A DNA stretch of 64,000 bases from Escherichia phage RCIP0363. The stretch's first letter is position 1, and every line of letters starts with the position of its first letter. The translations under genes and the position numbers were made by a program. Location: sequence record PV464739.1. One strand, given 5' to 3'. Of this stretch, positions 35,352 to 39,969 are shown in pieces. The notes under the pieces were generated by a model. The model was not told the DNA's origin, made no database searches, and saw only the letters and a list, made by a program, of their open reading frames with translations.

Positions 35352-35903
35352 TTATACAGTGTACGGAGTACCGTCTTGATTCAACCGCACGATGAACTTA
35401 AGGTCGACGCCGATGATTTCGCGCGTATCAAAGATCACATAGTTGTAACGACGCTGACCAGCAATATTTGGGTTGGTGTGAGAGTCGGTCACAACTTCCT
35501 GCGCAACCTGAATGCCTTCTTCTTTAAAGAACTTGCGCCATTCAGCAAGTTCAGCGGCAGTCACGTGCATACCAAAATGGCTAACCTGATTGTCGTGCGC
35601 ATCAATATATTCGATGTTTTCGTTAATCCAGTTGCAGCCCATTGTGTAGTCAAGGATTTCAAGCTCAAGAGGCTTACCAGCGCCGCCATCGGTGCCGTTG
35701 CCAGCTTGATAGTTGAATCGCAAGTCAGCTTCGTTGGTGCAATCGTCGCGACGACCTTTAAAGTCATCAGCTTCAAATACGCGACCAGTAGCAACAACAT
35801 GATCATGGAACCATTCTGTCAGGCCGATTTTAGCCAGAAAATCCTGTGCACGCTGAGCATCTGGAATTGACAGGGCGATTTGTTCAATTTTAAAGTGCGG
35901 CAT
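35352..35903 (-). CDS. VOC/glyoxalase-like fold protein (putative)
   Basis: Weak beta-alpha-beta-beta-beta module hints (KIEQIALSIPD, HFGMHV); tentative. Confidence 0.3.
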   Translation of the reverse strand: MPHFKIEQIALSIPDAQRAQDFLAKIGLTEWFHDHVVATGRVFEADDFKGRRDDCTNEADLRFNYQAGNGTDGGAGKPLELEILDYTMGCNWINENIEYIDAHDNQVSHFGMHVTAAELAEWRKFFKEEGIQVAQEVVTDSHTNPNIAGQRRYNYVIFDTREIIGVDLKFIVRLNQDGTPYTV

Positions 35904-35999
35904 TTTGTTTCCTTAATTAAATATTATTGATTAATTACTGTGTTGTCTTCGTCCTGTTTCTTTTCAGGAGCGGGTGTGACAACTTAAAATGTTCGTGAT

Positions 36000-36683
36000 T
36001 TATTTACCAAATGGAATATCAGTGCCAGACATAAAGCGCCATGCGCCCGTAATTAAGATATGGCGAATGAAGTCGGCAATTACTTGCGGCTCAGTCTCCA
36101 ATCCATTCATCAATGCCTTTTTCTGGTATTCAGCAGCGTATTCAGGAGTCCAGCCGCGAGTCGCACAAACGGCATCTTCAATCTGTTTAGACATGCCAGT
36201 GCCGCGTAGCTTGTTAGGACTAATAGAGAATACCGTGATCCCGTATTTAGGCGTAAGCTCGTGAGCCATCTGCTTGCTAATCATGAGCGCAGCAGCCTTG
36301 GAAGCATTATAACACAAGCTGGACGTCATAGGAATATGCGCAGCGTTGGAAACGATGTTGATCACAAAACCTTTGTTGTCAATAAGACTTTTCAGCGCGG
36401 CCTGAGTCGTGTTGACGAAAGAGAAGGCGTTGGTGTGCATAACGCGATTGAACTCTTCGTAGTTAACATCTTCGAACCAGTTGTTGGAGTTGACGCCAGC
36501 GCAGTTGATCAAGCCTTCTACGTCGTATTGAGAGAGAAGCTCTTTCATCTGTTTCGCGTTACGGATGTCATAGCCGTTCTCCAAATCAATACCGACAACT
36601 TCATGACCGTAAGCGCCAAGGGTGTCAAAAATGGATTTACCAAGACCGGAATTGCAGCCAGTTACAACAATTACTTTTTTCAT
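36000..36683 (-). CDS. short-chain dehydrogenase/reductase (SDR)
   Basis: Cofactor motif VVTGCNSGLG (TGxxxGxG), NCAG, and catalytic YNASK (YxxxK). Confidence 0.8.
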   Translation of the reverse strand: MKKVIVVTGCNSGLGKSIFDTLGAYGHEVVGIDLENGYDIRNAKQMKELLSQYDVEGLINCAGVNSNNWFEDVNYEEFNRVMHTNAFSFVNTTQAALKSLIDNKGFVINIVSNAAHIPMTSSLCYNASKAAALMISKQMAHELTPKYGITVFSISPNKLRGTGMSKQIEDAVCATRGWTPEYAAEYQKKALMNGLETEPQVIADFIRHILITGAWRFMSGTDIPFGK

Positions 36684-36748
36684 TTATTTATCCTTTTTGG
36701 ACTTCGTTTCGATGAGATAAATATAACTCATCGAAACGCACAAGTAAA

Positions 36749-37621
36749 CTATTTATTGAAATTAATATTATGGGTGTTAACAAGACGTTCACACATGGCG
36801 CTGTAAACACCATCATCGTGTATAGAGTCTTCGTGCTTCAGGCCGCTGATTGCGAAGCGTGTAAGCTTGACAATCTTAAGTTCGAACAGATGCCACATGT
36901 GGTAGTCTTCCGGCGTTTTCAACGTTACGCCATTAGGGAAAAGCACCTGCATAACCTGGCCTACCATCACAGCGTTATCGCCATAGACAGCGTTGCGCTC
37001 ACGGAAGGTTGCTGCCATTGCATCAAGAATATCGGCGGCAGTTGCCGGAGATTGTTCAATTTCCACAGCCTTAGTCTCTTCTTGCCCAGTTGCGCTTGGA
37101 TCAATTGCTAATTGTTGCACCACTTCACCTGCCTTGCAAAGATTAAATGTAAAAGCGATTTTATTTTGAGCAACGGAATTATAATACAATGCTTCATCTT
37201 GCATCCGCGCGAGTACGTCTTGTCGGTCGTCGAATACATTTATGATTCGATAATCGCCGTGCCGCAATGCGGCCGATAGCCATGCAGATTTCATAATAGT
37301 TGATGGACGTTTGTCGCCAGAGTCTCTCATCTTGATTTTAAATTCATCAAAAGGGAAAACATTGTCCAGACGTTCAAAAGTCACTTGTCTGTATTTTTCT
37401 GGCCTTGCAGTCCAATATTCAACCGCCTCACCGCGAAGAGATGCCGACTCTACTGCTGATGCAATGTGAGGATAGAACTGATCATAACCAATACCGCTGT
37501 GATAGTCATCATAGTCTGACAACGGACCTGCCACCTTGATGCGGTCTAAGCGCCAACGGTCATCAAACAGCGTTCCGTCAAGGTCGAATACGTTTAAGAT
37601 TTCGCTGTTTTTAATGCTCAT
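36749..37621 (-). CDS. HAD-superfamily phosphatase (polynucleotide-kinase-phosphatase-like) fused to an unknown C-terminal domain
   Basis: Motif I FDLDGTL (DxDGT) and downstream VFDDRQD. The N-terminal 170 aa parallel the T4 Pnk phosphatase domain pattern as recalled from memory. Confidence 0.6.
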   Translation of the reverse strand: MSIKNSEILNVFDLDGTLFDDRWRLDRIKVAGPLSDYDDYHSGIGYDQFYPHIASAVESASLRGEAVEYWTARPEKYRQVTFERLDNVFPFDEFKIKMRDSGDKRPSTIMKSAWLSAALRHGDYRIINVFDDRQDVLARMQDEALYYNSVAQNKIAFTFNLCKAGEVVQQLAIDPSATGQEETKAVEIEQSPATAADILDAMAATFRERNAVYGDNAVMVGQVMQVLFPNGVTLKTPEDYHMWHLFELKIVKLTRFAISGLKHEDSIHDDGVYSAMCERLVNTHNINFNK

Positions 37622-38448: not shown

Positions 38449-38461
38449 TTTAATTATCCTA

Positions 38462-38908
38462 TTAACGGTAATTCACTAGTTGCTGATCACCAGAGAAGGT
38501 GCAATGATAAACGAATTGTGCGTTATAAAGCAACTGAAAACTTTTCTTTGGTTCATTATTAGAACTCATTGATGTAAAGATTTCTGCACCAGAACGGTTT
38601 TCACCAATCAGATTGATAAAGCCGCCAGTTGAACGAGGCTGGACGAAAGTGAAACGTTGCATCCACGGAGTACGGTTGGCACCTTTCCCTGTGAATCCCT
38701 GAATCTGAATATTCAGACCTTCTTGCTCATTCACACCGATGTAAGTGGTAATCTTCGCACCAGTCGTTGCTGCGGTCTTACCGTCCATCGCTTCGCAATC
38801 ATAAACAGCGATTGAATCGGAAGTACGGATGGCAGCTTCAGTCGCTTCCATATACATGGTGCCGAGAATAGCAGTTGCGGCAAGCGCGATTCCAGTGATT
38901 CGTTTCAT
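38462..38908 (-). CDS. secreted protein (signal peptide), function unknown
   Basis: N-terminus MKRITGIALAATAILGTMYMEATEA. Confidence 0.45.
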   Translation of the reverse strand: MKRITGIALAATAILGTMYMEATEAAIRTSDSIAVYDCEAMDGKTAATTGAKITTYIGVNEQEGLNIQIQGFTGKGANRTPWMQRFTFVQPRSTGGFINLIGENRSGAEIFTSMSSNNEPKKSFQLLYNAQFVYHCTFSGDQQLVNYR

Positions 38909-38973
38909 TTTCGTTTCCTCTATGAGTTCTGCTTCAATGATTAAAGTATACGCCCATTGAAGCAGAAAGCAAA

Positions 38974-39969
38974 TTATTTATTAGCAATATAAGCAAATTT
39001 TTGATAGTTATTTGCTTTGATGAGTTTTTCAACTTCAACAAGGTCATGGGCAACGTCATCAAGCAAGATGTTGCGCCAGGTAGCAAATCGACCGACACTG
39101 AACACGTTCAAATCCATAGTCAGCTGCAGGAGTAGGGCGTGTCGCAAGTCTTTCGGAATGTCGACAATCTTGCCATATTTCTGGTCGACCTTTTCAACTT
39201 CTTCAAGAGCGATGTCACTCCATGAGAGGCCAAAGGCTGTCAACACTTCGTCGACTTCTGCGCGCAGCTTCATGTCACGGTAACGAGTGATGCCGCCAGC
39301 GGCTTCAACTGCAGCTTCACTCACGCTGACCAAAGGAATTGTTTCAATGATAAGCGTGTCACCAGTAATTGATGCGCGGTAAGTTCTGACGGAGTAGTCA
39401 GGGAAGTAAATTGTCTGATACAAATCACACTTACGTTTAATCTTAAAGCGGTAAACGCGAATGTTTGCTTTATCAAATGAGAAATCAAGCTTTTGATCAA
39501 TCCCAGCAAGCTTCATCATTACTGGCAGCGGCGACGTGTTGATGATTGGCGTCTCGCTATAGCCGCAAAGAGTATCAACCGGAGTATTAAAGAATATGCG
39601 GTCACCCAGTTTGTCGACAAGCTGATCATAAAAGTCATCAGGCGCAATATAACGCGTTGCAGTCTTAAGCTTCATGATTGAACGGCTGCCAAATTGATTG
39701 GTGACCTTCATGGAATACATATTGGCAAGGTTGATTGGGCAATGGTCGTGATAGTAGTTGCCGCGAAAATACACAGCCTTGTCAACTGTCACGGCCTTAA
39801 AAGGGATTCCGGTAATACGGCTTACTTCTTCGCCGCGAAAGCGTAGCAGCGCCTTGTGCTGTTGCGCTCGTTCCCCTGCTTCGTACACAATAGAGTTCGG
39901 GAAGTGACACGCGGTGATAAGTCCTGCCAATCCGCCGCCGATAATCATTACAGGTTGTTTCATGTTCAT
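38974..39969 (-). CDS. FAD/NAD(P)-binding oxidoreductase (Rossmann GxGxxG)
   Basis: N-terminal VMIIGGGLAGL dinucleotide-binding motif; family not assignable by eye. Confidence 0.55.
   Translation of the reverse strand: MNMKQPVMIIGGGLAGLITACHFPNSIVYEAGERAQQHKALLRFRGEEVSRITGIPFKAVTVDKAVYFRGNYYHDHCPINLANMYSMKVTNQFGSRSIMKLKTATRYIAPDDFYDQLVDKLGDRIFFNTPVDTLCGYSETPIINTSPLPVMMKLAGIDQKLDFSFDKANIRVYRFKIKRKCDLYQTIYFPDYSVRTYRASITGDTLIIETIPLVSVSEAAVEAAGGITRYRDMKLRAEVDEVLTAFGLSWSDIALEEVEKVDQKYGKIVDIPKDLRHALLLQLTMDLNVFSVGRFATWRNILLDDVAHDLVEVEKLIKANNYQKFAYIANK

What the first reader, a model, noticed from the sequence alone, without database searches (positions are those of the whole stretch)
35352..39969. 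Oxidoreductase-rich accessory cluster beside the replicase: VOC-like, SDR, HAD fusion, ThyX, secreted protein, FAD enzyme
Six consecutive minus-strand genes encode small-molecule enzymes rather than replication proteins. The SDR could be a FolM-like pteridine or dihydrofolate reductase supporting thymidylate synthesis, and the HAD domain a dNMP phosphatase. The FAD-binding protein, the VOC-like protein, the secreted protein and the unknown C-terminal domain of the HAD fusion have no obvious place in a standard dTMP pathway. Together they could form a nucleotide or DNA hypermodification route or an auxiliary metabolic pathway.
Basis: inference. Interest (0 to 1): 0.55.

Follow-up and report, generated by a model that had tools for sequence, protein, structure and literature searches.

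The report
Candidate phage thymine-hypermodification gene cluster
Six genes beside the DNA polymerase of this E. coli Wifcevirus phage include a conserved enzyme module (an unusual ThyX, a sugar-mutase-like flavoprotein, a phosphatase fusion, a reductase and an epimerase-like protein). It is the best available candidate for making the sugar-like thymine modification recently found in related Pseudomonas phages, for which no genes have been assigned.

Summary
Six minus-strand ORFs sit at exactly the stated coordinates, bracketed by two intrinsic terminators, upstream of the epsilon-exonuclease and Pol III alpha genes of a Wifcevirus (98% identical to FEC19).

Five of the six genes form a conserved unit. 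Across 53 related viral loci, the FAD protein always co-occurs, in fixed order, with a divergent ThyX (53/53). A HAD phosphatase and a DUF6378-like domain are nearly as constant (52/53). The SDR and VOC genes come and go as a pair (34 both, 16 neither). The secreted protein is a Wifcevirus-only insert.

The FAD protein folds like UDP-galactopyranose mutase. The VOC protein folds like methylmalonyl-CoA epimerase. The ThyX clade keeps every dUMP-binding arginine but has lost three histidines that contact FAD or folate.

Published work shows that Pbunavirus relatives carry a sugar-like thymidine hypermodification whose genes are unknown. [quoted passage not shown]

I conclude, by inference only, that this cluster is the hypermodification pathway (confidence about 0.5). 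The FolM idea for the SDR is not supported. The mechanism and the link to DNA remain untested.

The parts
38974..39969 (-). Core gene 1: a 331-aa FAD-type flavoprotein with a UDP-galactopyranose-mutase / protoporphyrinogen-oxidase / amine-oxidase fold. It belongs to a phage-only family with no Pfam or NCBIfam model.
38462..38908 (-). A 148-aa predicted secreted protein. It is a lineage-specific insertion, probably not part of the pathway.
   Evidence: No hits in Pfam, PHROGs, NCBIfam or PADLOC. N-terminal MKR followed by a hydrophobic stretch. Found only in the 3 Wifcevirus loci of 53. No homologue in the Serratia, Pantoea, Xanthomonas, Pseudomonas, Cronobacter or Ralstonia phage loci.
37618..38448 (-). 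Core gene 2: a 276-aa divergent ThyX-family (flavin-dependent thymidylate-synthase-like) protein.
   Evidence: Pfam Thy1 103 bits. NCBIfam thyX equivalog 78.9 bits, below the 87.9 cut-off. Only E~1e-3 to solved ThyX structures. Across 44 clade members, R78, R80, R90, R147, R165, R174 and Q75 (T. maritima numbering) are invariant, while H53->I, H79->T/S, H178->R and Y91->V/A. Present in 53 of 53 loci that carry the flavoprotein. Its distribution across phage genera matches that of the flavoprotein.
37112..37621 (-). Core gene 3, N-terminal domain: a HAD-superfamily phosphatase of the PNKP type.
   Evidence: Pfam HAD_PNKP 34.9 bits against 27.6. phrog_4889 E=5e-119. DLDGT and DDR motifs. Its start overlaps the ThyX stop codon. 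Present in 52 of 53 loci.
36752..37066 (-). Core gene 3, C-terminal domain: a DUF6378-like helical domain of unknown function.
   Evidence: Family alignment with invariant Y..K..R..H.DS..D..Y. 29 of 35 members hit Pfam DUF6378, best E=1e-5. It is a separate ORF in 16 of 52 loci and stands alone in a Ralstonia phage. No solved relative. Unrelated to the MazG-like proteins.
36000..36683 (-). Accessory gene A: a 227-aa classical short-chain dehydrogenase/reductase.
   Evidence: adh_short E=1e-31. Motifs TGCNSGLG, NCAG and YNASK. Nearest solved relatives are FabG and acetoin reductase, E~1e-12. No NCBIfam model reaches its cut-off. Present in 35 of 53 loci, almost always together with the VOC gene.
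35352..35903 (-). Accessory gene B: a 183-aa VOC-fold protein of the methylmalonyl-CoA-epimerase / glyoxalase-I type.
40054..40074 (-). Intrinsic-terminator-like hairpin upstream of the cluster, at the end of the preceding TolA-like gene.
   Evidence: 8-bp stem with 5 GC pairs plus a T6 run. A terminator is annotated at the same place in phage Mansfield.
35316..35335 (-). Intrinsic-terminator-like hairpin at the downstream end of the cluster, before the exonuclease and polymerase genes.
   Evidence: 8-bp stem with 7 GC pairs plus a T5 run. A terminator is annotated at the same place in phage Mansfield.

Best explanation
The block is a conserved, phage-only nucleotide-modification module. It most likely builds a sugar-derived substituent on C5 of deoxyuridylate or thymidine, so that part of the thymine in virion DNA is replaced by a hypermodified base that blocks restriction enzymes.

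Composition (shown): the core is a UGM-like flavoprotein, a divergent ThyX, a HAD phosphatase and a DUF6378-like domain. A reductase (SDR) and an epimerase/isomerase-like VOC protein form an accessory pair. The whole unit is always placed just upstream of the phage's Pol III epsilon and alpha genes.

Proposed steps (all inferred):
1. The ThyX-like enzyme binds dUMP. Every dUMP-binding Arg and Gln is retained. It runs ThyX-type flavin chemistry: a carbon is relayed through a flavin-N5 iminium to C5, giving an exocyclic 5-methylene intermediate. Three histidines that contact folate or FAD in canonical ThyX are replaced throughout the clade. The carbon donor, or the fate of the intermediate, is therefore expected to differ from plain methylation.
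2. The partner flavoprotein resembles UGM, the other textbook enzyme whose reduced flavin N5 forms an iminium adduct, in that case with a sugar anomeric carbon. It would supply or activate a pentose or hexose (phosphate) unit that ends up on the C5 carbon. By my arithmetic, dU + pentose - O = C14H22N2O9 = 362 Da. That is the mass reported for the F8 nucleoside, described there as thymidine plus a C4 sugar alcohol.
3. The HAD phosphatase removes the phosphate that a sugar-phosphate donor would leave on the side chain, or dephosphorylates a nucleotide.
4. SDR and VOC, present here but absent from Pbunavirus, reduce or epimerise a carbonyl in the side chain. The Wifcevirus adduct should therefore differ from those of F8 and 14-1.
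5. The product is incorporated by the adjacent replicase, or the modification is finished on DNA.

The secreted protein is an unrelated insert.
For: Conservation as a unit:
- In 53 IMG/VR loci that reach the polymerase, ThyX-like is present in 53, HAD in 52, DUF6378-like in 52, exonuclease in 52 and polymerase in 52. The order and strand are always the same.
- SDR and VOC occur together in 34 loci, are both absent in 16, and occur singly in 1 each.
- The pair is gained and lost on both the myovirus-like and the small-genome backbones.
- The same module occurs in Cronobacter, Vibrio and Ralstonia phages of about 40 kb, which are unrelated to Wifcevirus, and in 206-kb Rhizobium phages next to dUTPase and RNR.
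- Genus-level counts of the flavoprotein and the ThyX clade match: Pseudomonas 292/292, Escherichia 26/26, Serratia 9/9, Xanthomonas 6/6.

Folds.

ThyX residue pattern.

Only candidate in the genome: nothing else enzyme-like is present apart from a MazG-like protein and a ligase.

Experimental context from the literature:
- F8 and 14-1 DNA has about a quarter of its T replaced, in TG context, by 362-Da and 390-Da sugar-like thymidine derivatives. The authors note that such phages 'do not carry such genes' (PMC12191111).
- Wifcevirus Bas99 plates at 1.7e9 on EcoRI (19 sites) and 5.6e9 on EcoCFT_II (92 sites) against 4.4e9 on vector. It gives no plaques on EcoP1_I (89 sites).
- Two mechanistically alike type III systems giving opposite results argues for sequence-context-specific DNA protection.
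- Every 5-mer that fits the EcoCFT_II site count contains TG or TT. AGACC/GGTCT contains neither.

Sequence signal in the window: 6-bp palindromes containing TG or TT are not avoided (median O/E 1.1). Those with neither are strongly avoided (median 0.09, 15 absent, p=3e-8). T7 avoids palindromes in all classes.

Precedents:
- SP-15 DNA has 5-(4',5'-dihydroxypentyl)uracil. Its side chain is labelled from ribose and it is made as a dNTP. SP-15 encodes a second divergent Thy1 protein right after an SDR.
- ThyA homologues have been repurposed with flavin to make 5-hydroxy-dCMP (PMC13326640).
Against: - No experiment links these genes to any DNA modification. No nucleoside analysis of a Wifcevirus was found.
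- The TG context specificity reported for F8 implies a DNA-level, sequence-reading step. Nothing in this gene set is an obvious DNA-binding enzyme. A purely nucleotide-pool route would give context-independent incorporation.
- F8 and 14-1 make different adducts, yet they have the same genes in this block, with 97% and 94% identical flavoprotein and ThyX. At least part of the chemistry may therefore be encoded elsewhere or supplied by the host.
- The ThyX clade keeps all substrate-binding arginines. It could simply be a working thymidylate synthase: it scores 78.9 bits against an 87.9 cut-off, a near miss.
- EcoRV sites contain no TG or TT, yet Bas99 is not restricted at its 4 sites.
- The palindrome signal is partly generic. 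T7 also depletes the 'other' class most. The positive control F8 shows only a weak version (p=0.02) and does not avoid TT palindromes, although TT sites are cut in vitro.
- The SP-15 proteins are not detectably homologous to these.
Confidence: 0.5

Rival explanations
1. An ordinary thymidylate-supply module. The ThyX makes dTMP for fast replication. The flavoprotein is a dedicated redox helper, for example keeping the ThyX flavin reduced. The HAD domain is a nucleotidase or a PNKP-like end-healing phosphatase. SDR and VOC are unrelated auxiliary genes. Any DNA modification is made by other, still unrecognised genes or by host enzymes.
For: All dUMP-binding residues are retained. The Pfam Thy1 match is strong and the NCBIfam thyX score is only just below the cut-off. 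The module sits with dUTPase and ribonucleotide reductase in Rhizobium jumbo phages and next to the replicase everywhere. Three quarters of the T in F8 DNA is normal thymine. F8 and 14-1 differ in adduct but not in gene content here.
Against: Clade-wide replacement of H53, H79 and H178. A near-obligate link to a sugar-mutase-like flavoprotein and to DUF6378 has no role in known ThyX biochemistry. SDR and VOC behave as a coupled pair inside the block, not as random morons. No other enzyme candidates are found in the genome.
Confidence: 0.27
2. A sugar or cell-envelope auxiliary pathway. The UGM-like enzyme, SDR, VOC, phosphatase and the secreted protein would alter a host glycan (O-antigen or LPS) or make a small molecule for superinfection exclusion or host takeover, unrelated to DNA.
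For: UGM-like, SDR and HAD enzymes are typical of nucleotide-sugar pathways. The phage uses O-antigen as its receptor (PMC11990801). One gene encodes a predicted secreted protein. PHROGs files the SDR under 'moron, auxiliary metabolic gene'.
Against: No glycosyltransferase or transporter is present in the genome. The secreted protein is confined to Wifcevirus. The module is conserved in virulent phages of very different hosts and always travels with ThyX and the replicase, not with lysis or tail genes. The family is absent from bacterial genomes.
Confidence: 0.06
3. Wifcevirus restriction resistance comes from site avoidance plus a protein-based anti-restriction function, with no DNA modification. 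The cluster's conservation reflects linkage to the replicase, not a shared pathway.
For: Very strong avoidance of many palindromes: BamHI, KpnI, SacI, XhoI, SmaI and others have 0 sites. T7 shows that avoidance alone can be extensive. No nucleoside data exist for Wifcevirus.
Against: 19 EcoRI and 92 EcoCFT_II sites are tolerated while 89 EcoP1 sites are lethal. This is hard to explain without sequence-specific masking of DNA. The relatives are experimentally hypermodified. SDR and VOC are gained and lost as a pair, and HAD and DUF6378 occur both fused and as separate ORFs; both indicate functional coupling.
Confidence: 0.12

Closest known systems
Thymidine hypermodification of Pbunavirus F8 and 14-1 (END-nuclease preprint, PMC12191111)
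   Same: The phages are related: same replicase block, with orthologous flavoprotein (41% identity), ThyX-like (49%) and HAD-DUF6378 fusion. The modification is on thymine and is sugar-like, which suits a UGM-like enzyme, a phosphatase and ThyX-type C5 chemistry.
   Different: No genes were assigned in that work. Pbunaviruses lack the SDR and VOC genes. F8 DNA is cut by EcoRI, whereas Wifcevirus resists EcoRI in vivo. The motif or extent, and probably the adduct, therefore differ. Nothing has been measured for Wifcevirus DNA.
5-hmdU-based thymidine hypermodification pathways (PhiW-14, SP10, ViI, M6, PaMx11; PMC8989533)
   Same: Phage-encoded replacement of part of thymine by C5-substituted uracils that block nucleases. 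The chemistry goes through an exocyclic 5-methylene electrophile. One pathway (PaMx11 gp47) uses an FAD enzyme.
   Different: Those pathways start with a ThyA-family dUMP hydroxymethyltransferase. They then use a P-loop 5-hmdU DNA kinase and aGPT-Pplase amino-acid:DNA transferases. None of these is detectable here: no ThyA homologue, no Walker A motif outside the helicases, and no such Pfam hits. The adducts there are amines or amino acids, not sugars.
Bacillus phage SP-15 5-(4',5'-dihydroxypentyl)uracil (PMC5977210)
   Same: A C5 five-carbon polyol chain on uracil that replaces about half of T. The side chain is labelled from ribose and the base is made as a nucleoside triphosphate (titles of refs 42 and 43). 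The genome has a second, divergent Thy1-family protein (gp130) immediately after an SDR (gp129). By my arithmetic, the F8 nucleoside (362 Da) equals the SP-15 nucleoside plus two hydroxyls.
   Different: SP-15 gp129 and gp130 are not detectably homologous to the window's SDR and ThyX clade. No UGM-like flavoprotein was found in the SP-15 regions examined. The roles of gp129 and gp130 are themselves only hypothesised. SP-15 adds glucose and phosphoglucuronolactone using glycosyltransferases that are absent here.
Canonical flavin-dependent thymidylate synthase ThyX and UDP-galactopyranose mutase (flavin-N5 covalent catalysis)
   Same: The Thy1 fold and all dUMP-binding arginines match ThyX. The overall fold, the GxGxxG motif and the C-terminal GR..T[YW]R....D motif match UGM. 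Both enzyme types use reduced flavin N5 as a covalent carrier (ThyX part: PMC8989533; UGM part: established knowledge).
   Different: The ThyX signature RHR..S..S.RY reads RTR..A..T.RA. H53 and H178 are replaced. The protein scores below the NCBIfam equivalog cut-off. The flavoprotein is about 50 residues shorter than bacterial UGM. It has no GLF Pfam or glf NCBIfam match. The position of K. pneumoniae UGM Tyr349 is Asn. No pairing of these two enzyme types has been described in the literature I could search.
Glycosylated 5-hydroxycytosine pathways (RB69, DLP3, RL38JI; PMC13326640)
   Same: A thymidylate-synthase-family enzyme is repurposed, with a flavin, to make a new C5 function at the mononucleotide stage. 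Sugar-handling enzymes, including a UGM in RL38JI, are encoded alongside.

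Membership tests
ThyX / flavin-dependent thymidylate synthase (Pfam Thy1, NCBIfam TIGR02170) | Thy1 domain above the Pfam gathering score | tested here: met
   103 bits against a cut-off of 24.8.
ThyX / flavin-dependent thymidylate synthase (Pfam Thy1, NCBIfam TIGR02170) | Score above the NCBIfam equivalog cut-off (same function expected) | tested here: not met
   78.9 bits against a cut-off of 87.9. Only E~1e-3 to solved ThyX structures.
ThyX / flavin-dependent thymidylate synthase (Pfam Thy1, NCBIfam TIGR02170) | ThyX signature RHR(X7)S..RY and the histidines that contact FAD or folate (T. 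maritima H53, H79, H178) | tested here: not met
   RTRTGAYQERTSRA in the window. H53->I (44/44), H79->T/S, H178->R (44/44), Y91->V/A across the clade. Its numbering is self-consistent, and its residues 127-213 agree with the tool alignment.
ThyX / flavin-dependent thymidylate synthase (Pfam Thy1, NCBIfam TIGR02170) | dUMP-binding residues (Q75, R78, R80, R90, R147, R165, R174) | tested here: met
   All invariant in 44 of 44 clade members.
ThyX / flavin-dependent thymidylate synthase (Pfam Thy1, NCBIfam TIGR02170) | Catalyses dUMP + CH2-THF + NADPH -> dTMP | not testable with these tools
   Needs an enzyme assay or thyA complementation.
UDP-galactopyranose mutase (Glf) | Sequence membership (Pfam GLF, NCBIfam glf, or a profile hit to solved UGMs) | tested here: not met
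   No Pfam hit even at E<=10. No NCBIfam hit. phmmer and hmmsearch against the PDB find only the GxGxxG region of amine oxidases. The phage Mansfield record reports HHpred 100% to 1I8T; I could not rerun this.
UDP-galactopyranose mutase (Glf) | Three-dimensional fold closest to UGM | tested here: inconclusive
UDP-galactopyranose mutase (Glf) | C-terminal GRLGTYRYLDMD motif, including the substrate-contacting Tyr349 (K. pneumoniae) | tested here: inconclusive
   The window has GRFATWRNILLDD. G, R, T, R and the final D are shared. The Tyr349 position is Asn.
5-hmdU-type thymidine hypermodification system (Lee et al. 2018, 2021) | ThyA-family dUMP hydroxymethyltransferase | tested here: not met
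   No ThyA-type gene appears in the cluster or in the annotated genome of the close relative Bas99.
5-hmdU-type thymidine hypermodification system (Lee et al. 2018, 2021) | P-loop 5-hmdU DNA kinase | tested here: not met
   Walker A motifs in real genes occur only in the primase-helicase and the Dda helicase. A third match lies in a spurious antisense ORF. Unannotated ORFs of 150-290 aa have no kinase Pfam hit.
5-hmdU-type thymidine hypermodification system (Lee et al. 2018, 2021) | aGPT-Pplase / amino-acid:DNA transferase | tested here: inconclusive
   No such Pfam hit in the roughly 20 proteins scanned. ORFs shorter than 150 aa were not scanned.
5-hmdU-type thymidine hypermodification system (Lee et al. 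2018, 2021) | Non-canonical thymidine derivative in virion DNA | not testable with these tools
   Shown for the Pbunavirus relatives. Not measured for Wifcevirus.
Classical SDR | TGxxxGxG, NxAG and YxxxK motifs, and adh_short above the cut-off | tested here: met
   TGCNSGLG at residue 8, NCAG at 60, YNASK at 125. 110 bits against 26.6.
   The top 43 PDB hits are FabG, acetoin, butanediol and carbonyl reductases. The top NCBIfam hits are glucose 1-dehydrogenase, FabG and DhbA, all far below their cut-offs.
VOC (glyoxalase / bleomycin-resistance / dioxygenase) superfamily | Paired beta-alpha-beta-beta-beta fold | tested here: met
VOC (glyoxalase / bleomycin-resistance / dioxygenase) superfamily | Pfam family membership and canonical metal ligands | tested here: inconclusive
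   Glyoxalase_4 scores 18 bits against a cut-off of 27. The first-strand position is Gln (Q8), not His. E80/E82, H109/H113 and D167 are invariant, but they were not mapped onto a metal site.
HAD phosphatase, PNKP type | DxDxT nucleophile motif, DD(R) motif, and Pfam HAD_PNKP above the cut-off | tested here: met
   DLDGT at residue 13, DDR at 131. 34.9 bits against 27.6.
DUF6378 | Pfam PF19905 match | tested here: inconclusive
   The window copy gives no hit. 29 of 35 aligned family members do, all below the gathering score, best E=1e-5.

The most novel reading that the evidence does not exclude
A divergent ThyX and a UGM-like flavoprotein act together as a new kind of flavin-dependent 'uracil C5 glycityl/alkyl transferase'. 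Instead of relaying a methylene from folate, flavin-N5 iminium chemistry would couple a host pentose or hexose (phosphate) to C5 of dUMP. After dephosphorylation by the HAD domain, and optional SDR/VOC tailoring, this would give the C-linked polyol-thymidines seen in Pbunavirus DNA. The route would be independent of ThyA hydroxymethylases, 5-hmdU DNA kinases and glycosyltransferases. It would be shared by more than a thousand phage lineages, including therapeutic Pbunaviruses.
Probability: 0.25. Interest if true: 0.9.

Novelty: new variant of a known kind. Interest (0 to 1): 0.75.

Why it matters
[quoted passage not shown] Their DNA was found only in 2025 to carry a sugar-like thymidine hypermodification, and the authors assigned no genes to it. 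[quoted passage not shown]

This analysis points to a small, testable gene set shared by both groups and by hundreds of uncultured phages: three core genes plus a two-gene accessory pair.

If confirmed, the result would:
- Define a third enzymatic route to modified pyrimidines in DNA, ThyX-based, beside the ThyA-hydroxymethylase and ThyA-hydroxylase routes.
- Supply a genomic marker for predicting hypermodified genomes. This matters for sequencing, cloning, phage engineering and sensitivity to END-type nucleases.
- Possibly reveal new flavoenzyme chemistry.

If refuted, the pairing of a ThyX clade with a dedicated flavoprotein still needs an explanation.

Tried and rejected
- **Sequence searches of the flavoprotein against solved structures.** Both the single sequence and the profile find only the dinucleotide-binding motif. 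Structure prediction was needed.
- **DUF6378-like domain.** No solved relative, no literature on its function, and no relation to the phage's MazG-like proteins by hhalign. The idea of a 'pyrophosphatase-phosphatase fusion' was dropped.
- **SDR as FolM or PTR1.** Rejected.
- **PADLOC.** No defence or anti-defence model matches any of the six proteins or the TolA-like neighbour.
- **F8 against 14-1.** I looked for a gene difference that could explain the 362-Da and 390-Da adducts. Gene content in the block is identical. Only the HAD fusion (81%) and the small ORFs are noticeably diverged. The one strongly different gene nearby (ORF070, 57%) is a coiled-coil, non-enzyme protein.
- **SP-15 gp129 and gp130 as homologues.** Not detectable. 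Kept as an analogy only.
- **Bacterial homologues that might reveal the chemistry.** None. Only 6 MAG contigs in 185,579 genomes carry the flavoprotein.
- **Palindrome avoidance as proof of a TG/TT-specific modification.** Downgraded after controls. T7 also depletes the same class most, and F8 gives only a weak signal.
- **Later papers assigning genes to the Pbunavirus modification.** None found in the searchable library.
- **The two 1978 SP-15 papers.** Not held. Only their titles are cited.

Full report
**What the window is.**
- The region 35000-40200 is 93-98% identical to 28 Wifcevirus genomes, including FEC19, ECML-117, WFH, WFC, Mansfield and BASEL Bas98-101.
- These are virulent E. coli/Shigella myoviruses of about 68 kb, distantly related to the Pseudomonas Pbunavirus genus (PMC11990801).

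**The observation.**
- All six minus-strand ORFs are present at the coordinates given.
- Going down the strand, they follow a Dda-like helicase and a Lys/Glu/Ala-rich 'TolA-like' protein.
- They precede the epsilon-type exonuclease and the Pol III alpha gene.
- Two strong intrinsic-terminator-like hairpins bracket the six genes, at 40074-40054 and 35335-35316. The same two are annotated in phage Mansfield.
- The block therefore looks like a transcription unit of its own.

**What each product is.**
- **35352-35903 (VOC).**
  - Sequence evidence is weak: Glyoxalase_4 scores 18 bits against a cut-off of 27, and a family profile finds nothing in the PDB.
  - This is the proton-shuffling epimerase/isomerase branch of the VOC superfamily, not the dioxygenases.
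- **36000-36683 (SDR).**
  - It is a classical SDR with intact cofactor and catalytic motifs.
  - Its nearest relatives are FabG, acetoin reductase and glucose dehydrogenase types.
  - No curated family reaches its cut-off, and nothing points to pteridine reduction.
- **36749-37621 (HAD fusion).**
  - A PNKP-type HAD phosphatase with DLDGT and DDR motifs is joined to a roughly 100-residue helical domain.
  - The relatives of that domain weakly match DUF6378.
  - The domain is a separate ORF in 16 of 52 related loci, and it stands alone in a Ralstonia phage. It is therefore an independent module.
- **37618-38448 (ThyX family).** It belongs to the family (Thy1, 103 bits) but scores below the NCBIfam thyX equivalog cut-off, 78.9 against 87.9.
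- **38462-38908 (secreted protein).** It has a signal-peptide-like N-terminus and no homologues outside Wifcevirus.
- **38974-39969 (flavoprotein).**
  - It has an invariant GxGxxG and no Pfam, NCBIfam or PDB sequence match.
  - Its near-invariant C-terminal GRFATWRNILLDD lines up with the UGM motif GRLGTYRYLDMD. The position of K. pneumoniae UGM Tyr349 is Asn.

**Is it a unit?** I fetched 80 viral-contig loci that encode a relative of the flavoprotein. I scored them with HMMs built from the window and from six annotated phages.
- Among the 53 loci that extend as far as the polymerase:
  - The ThyX-like gene is present in 53.
  - The HAD domain is present in 52, the DUF6378-like domain in 52, the exonuclease in 52 and Pol III alpha in 52.
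  - All are in the same order on the same strand.
- SDR and VOC are both present in 34 loci, both absent in 16, and single in one each.
- Presence and absence of the pair are scattered over both Pbuna-like and small-genome backbones. The two genes behave as a coupled accessory pair.
- The secreted protein occurs only in the three Wifcevirus loci. It sits where other phages have the flavoprotein and ThyX genes adjacent or overlapping.
- In the GenBank phage collection, the flavoprotein (361 records) and this ThyX clade have matching genus-level counts.
- The module also occurs in Cronobacter, Vibrio and Ralstonia phages of about 40 kb.
- It occurs in 206-kb Rhizobium phages as well, among dUTPase and ribonucleotide-reductase genes.
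- It is essentially absent from bacterial genomes: 6 MAG contigs in 185,579 species.
- The flavoprotein family is large: 1954 clusters at 90% identity and 1137 at 50%.

**The ThyX is not ordinary.**
- I aligned 44 clade members to T. maritima ThyX. That sequence was recalled from memory. It reproduces the published residue numbers and agrees with the tool alignment.
- Every residue that binds dUMP is invariant: Q75, R78, R80, R90, R147, R165 and R174.
- The histidines that contact the flavin and stack on folate are replaced in all members: H53->Ile, H79->Thr/Ser and H178->Arg.
- Tyr91 becomes Val or Ala, and Ser88 is Thr, Ser or Ala.
- The family signature RHR..S..S.RY therefore reads RTR..A..T.RA in the window.
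- The substrate is probably still dUMP. The cofactor/carbon-donor side of the active site has changed.

**Why DNA modification is the leading reading.**
- *Pbunavirus relatives are modified.*
  - A 2025 preprint showed that F8 and 14-1 virion DNA resists enzymes whose sites contain TG.
  - About a quarter of its T is replaced by new nucleosides of 362 and 390 Da. These are interpreted as thymidine bearing an erythrose/threose sugar alcohol and a cyclised aldopentose.
  - No biosynthetic genes were identified (PMC12191111).
  - F8 and 14-1 carry the flavoprotein, ThyX-like and HAD-DUF6378 genes in the same block, but no SDR or VOC.
- *Wifceviruses resist restriction in a site-dependent way.*
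  - For Bas99 the raw counts are 4.4e9 pfu on vector and 1.7e9 on EcoRI (19 sites).
  - They are 3.6e9 on EcoRV (4 sites) and 5.6e9 on EcoCFT_II (92 sites). There are no plaques on EcoP1_I (89 sites).
  - Two type III systems with equal site numbers and opposite outcomes argue for masking of particular sequences, not a general inhibitor.
  - I reproduced the published site counts. The EcoCFT_II 5-mer must be one of AACTA, CACAG, CACTG, CCACG or GGAAC.
  - All five contain TG or TT on one strand, whereas AGACC/GGTCT contains neither.
- *There are no other candidates.* Apart from this block, a MazG-like protein and a ligase, the Wifcevirus genome has no enzyme-like genes. There is no ThyA homologue, no glycosyltransferase, and no Walker A motif outside the helicases.

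**A sequence-only hint, with controls.**
- In the window, the 28 six-base palindromes containing TG or TT occur at the expected frequency (median O/E 1.1).
- The 36 palindromes with neither have a median O/E of 0.09, and 15 are absent (p=3e-8).
- Non-palindromic 6-mers of the 'neither' class are only mildly depleted (median 0.52). T7 avoids palindromes of all three classes.
- This fits protection of TG and TT sites.
- The signal is weak in the positive control F8. T7 also depletes the 'neither' class most. EcoRV-type sites are an exception in vivo. I therefore treat it as suggestive only.

**Mechanism (inferred).**
- ThyX moves a carbon from folate to C5 of dUMP through a flavin-N5 iminium. 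This gives an exocyclic methylene that is then reduced (summarised in PMC8989533).
- UGM uses the same flavin N5 to form an iminium with a sugar's anomeric carbon (established knowledge).
- A ThyX with an altered donor side, locked to a UGM-like flavoprotein and a phosphatase, is the toolkit one would want for attaching a sugar-phosphate-derived chain to C5.
- By my arithmetic, dU + pentose - O = C14H22N2O9 = 362 Da. This is isomeric with 'thymidine + C4 sugar alcohol'.
- There is a precedent in phage SP-15.
  - Its DNA contains 5-(4',5'-dihydroxypentyl)uracil, which is labelled from ribose and made as a triphosphate.
  - The phage encodes a second divergent Thy1 protein directly after an SDR.
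  - Those proteins are not detectably homologous to the ones here.
- The SDR and the epimerase-like VOC protein would tailor a carbonyl in the side chain. The Wifcevirus adduct is therefore predicted to differ from the Pbunavirus ones.

**Weak points.**
- Nothing in the block explains a TG-type context specificity.
- F8 and 14-1 differ in adduct but not in gene content here.
- UGM is only narrowly the best structural match.
- The ThyX could simply be a thymidylate synthase with a helper.

**Verdict.**
  - A hypermodification route is plausible and now has experimental context.
  - The FolM idea is rejected.
  - The secreted protein is excluded.
- The module appears to be undescribed as a functional unit in the literature I could search.
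- I rate it a new variant of a known kind, phage pyrimidine hypermodification, with an enzymology unlike the known pathways.
- Confidence that the block makes a DNA modification is about 0.5.

Noticed in passing
window 1-64000 (whole window): Six-base palindromes show class-selective avoidance. The 28 that contain TG/CA or TT/AA are at expected frequency. The 36 with neither have a median O/E of 0.09, and 15 are absent, including the BamHI, KpnI, SacI, XhoI, SmaI, NheI, AvrII and PvuI sites. Exceptions that are not depleted: GTCGAC, CGCGCG, GCGCGC, TCGCGA, ATCGAT and ACGCGT. GATC is at 107 against 247 expected.
   Followed up: partly
window 26951-27544 (-): A MazG-like pyrophosphatase (weak Pfam hit, E=0.005) lies next to the DNA ligase and is conserved in Pbunavirus F8 (gp049). 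In phages with modified DNA, such enzymes often clear a canonical dNTP, so it could belong to the same pathway. It shows no relation to the DUF6378-like domain.
   Followed up: partly
window 40102-40947 (-): A Lys/Glu/Ala-rich 'TolA-like' protein (phrog_4765). Its C-terminal domain of about 110 residues is conserved in Serratia, Xanthomonas and Pseudomonas relatives. The protein always sits immediately upstream of the flavoprotein in Pbuna-like genomes (30 of 53 loci). It is very basic (pI 9.7), so it might bind DNA.
   Followed up: partly
window 35904-35999: Only a 96-bp gap separates the VOC and SDR genes here. Mansfield (71 aa) and Bas99 (56 aa) have a small extra ORF at this position, so this phage carries a deletion or variant of it.
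   Followed up: no
window 37618-37810 (C-terminal ~60 residues of the ThyX-like protein): Wifcevirus and Pbunavirus ThyX-like proteins carry a C-terminal extension with conserved cysteines (C..GMGKCAFPRHGKAHCPWYRDW). The roughly 240-aa versions in the small-genome phages lack it. Possibly a metal site.
   Followed up: no
L088 (Gordonia phage Lambo NC_048814.1, 46000-62000): Gordonia and Mycobacterium phages encode clear homologues of the window's ThyX clade (HMM E=4e-33), SDR (2e-30) and DnaE polymerase, plus a MazG-like gene, within 7 kb. They have no UGM-like flavoprotein, VOC or DUF6378-like gene.
   Followed up: partly
L095 (Bacillus phage SP-15 KT624200.1, 115025-116910): An SDR (gp129) ends exactly where a 413-aa divergent Thy1 protein (gp130) starts. 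This phage's DNA carries a ribose-derived dihydroxypentyl-uracil. The arrangement is analogous to the window, but the proteins are not detectably homologous.
   Followed up: partly
window 28117-29594 (-): Two conserved proteins match the Pfam families Pam3_Gp34 (E=4e-86) and DUF7307 / Pam3 gp33-like (E=6e-37), between the spanin genes and the UvsW-like helicase. Function unknown.
   Followed up: no
L006 (Pantoea phage Kyle NC_048796.1, locus 3545-3835): Phage Kyle has an extra small MazG-like gene inserted between the ThyX-like and HAD genes. Cronobacter phage Ss1 fuses its HAD domain to DUF3310 instead of the DUF6378-like domain. The phosphatase's partner domain is therefore exchangeable.
   Followed up: partly
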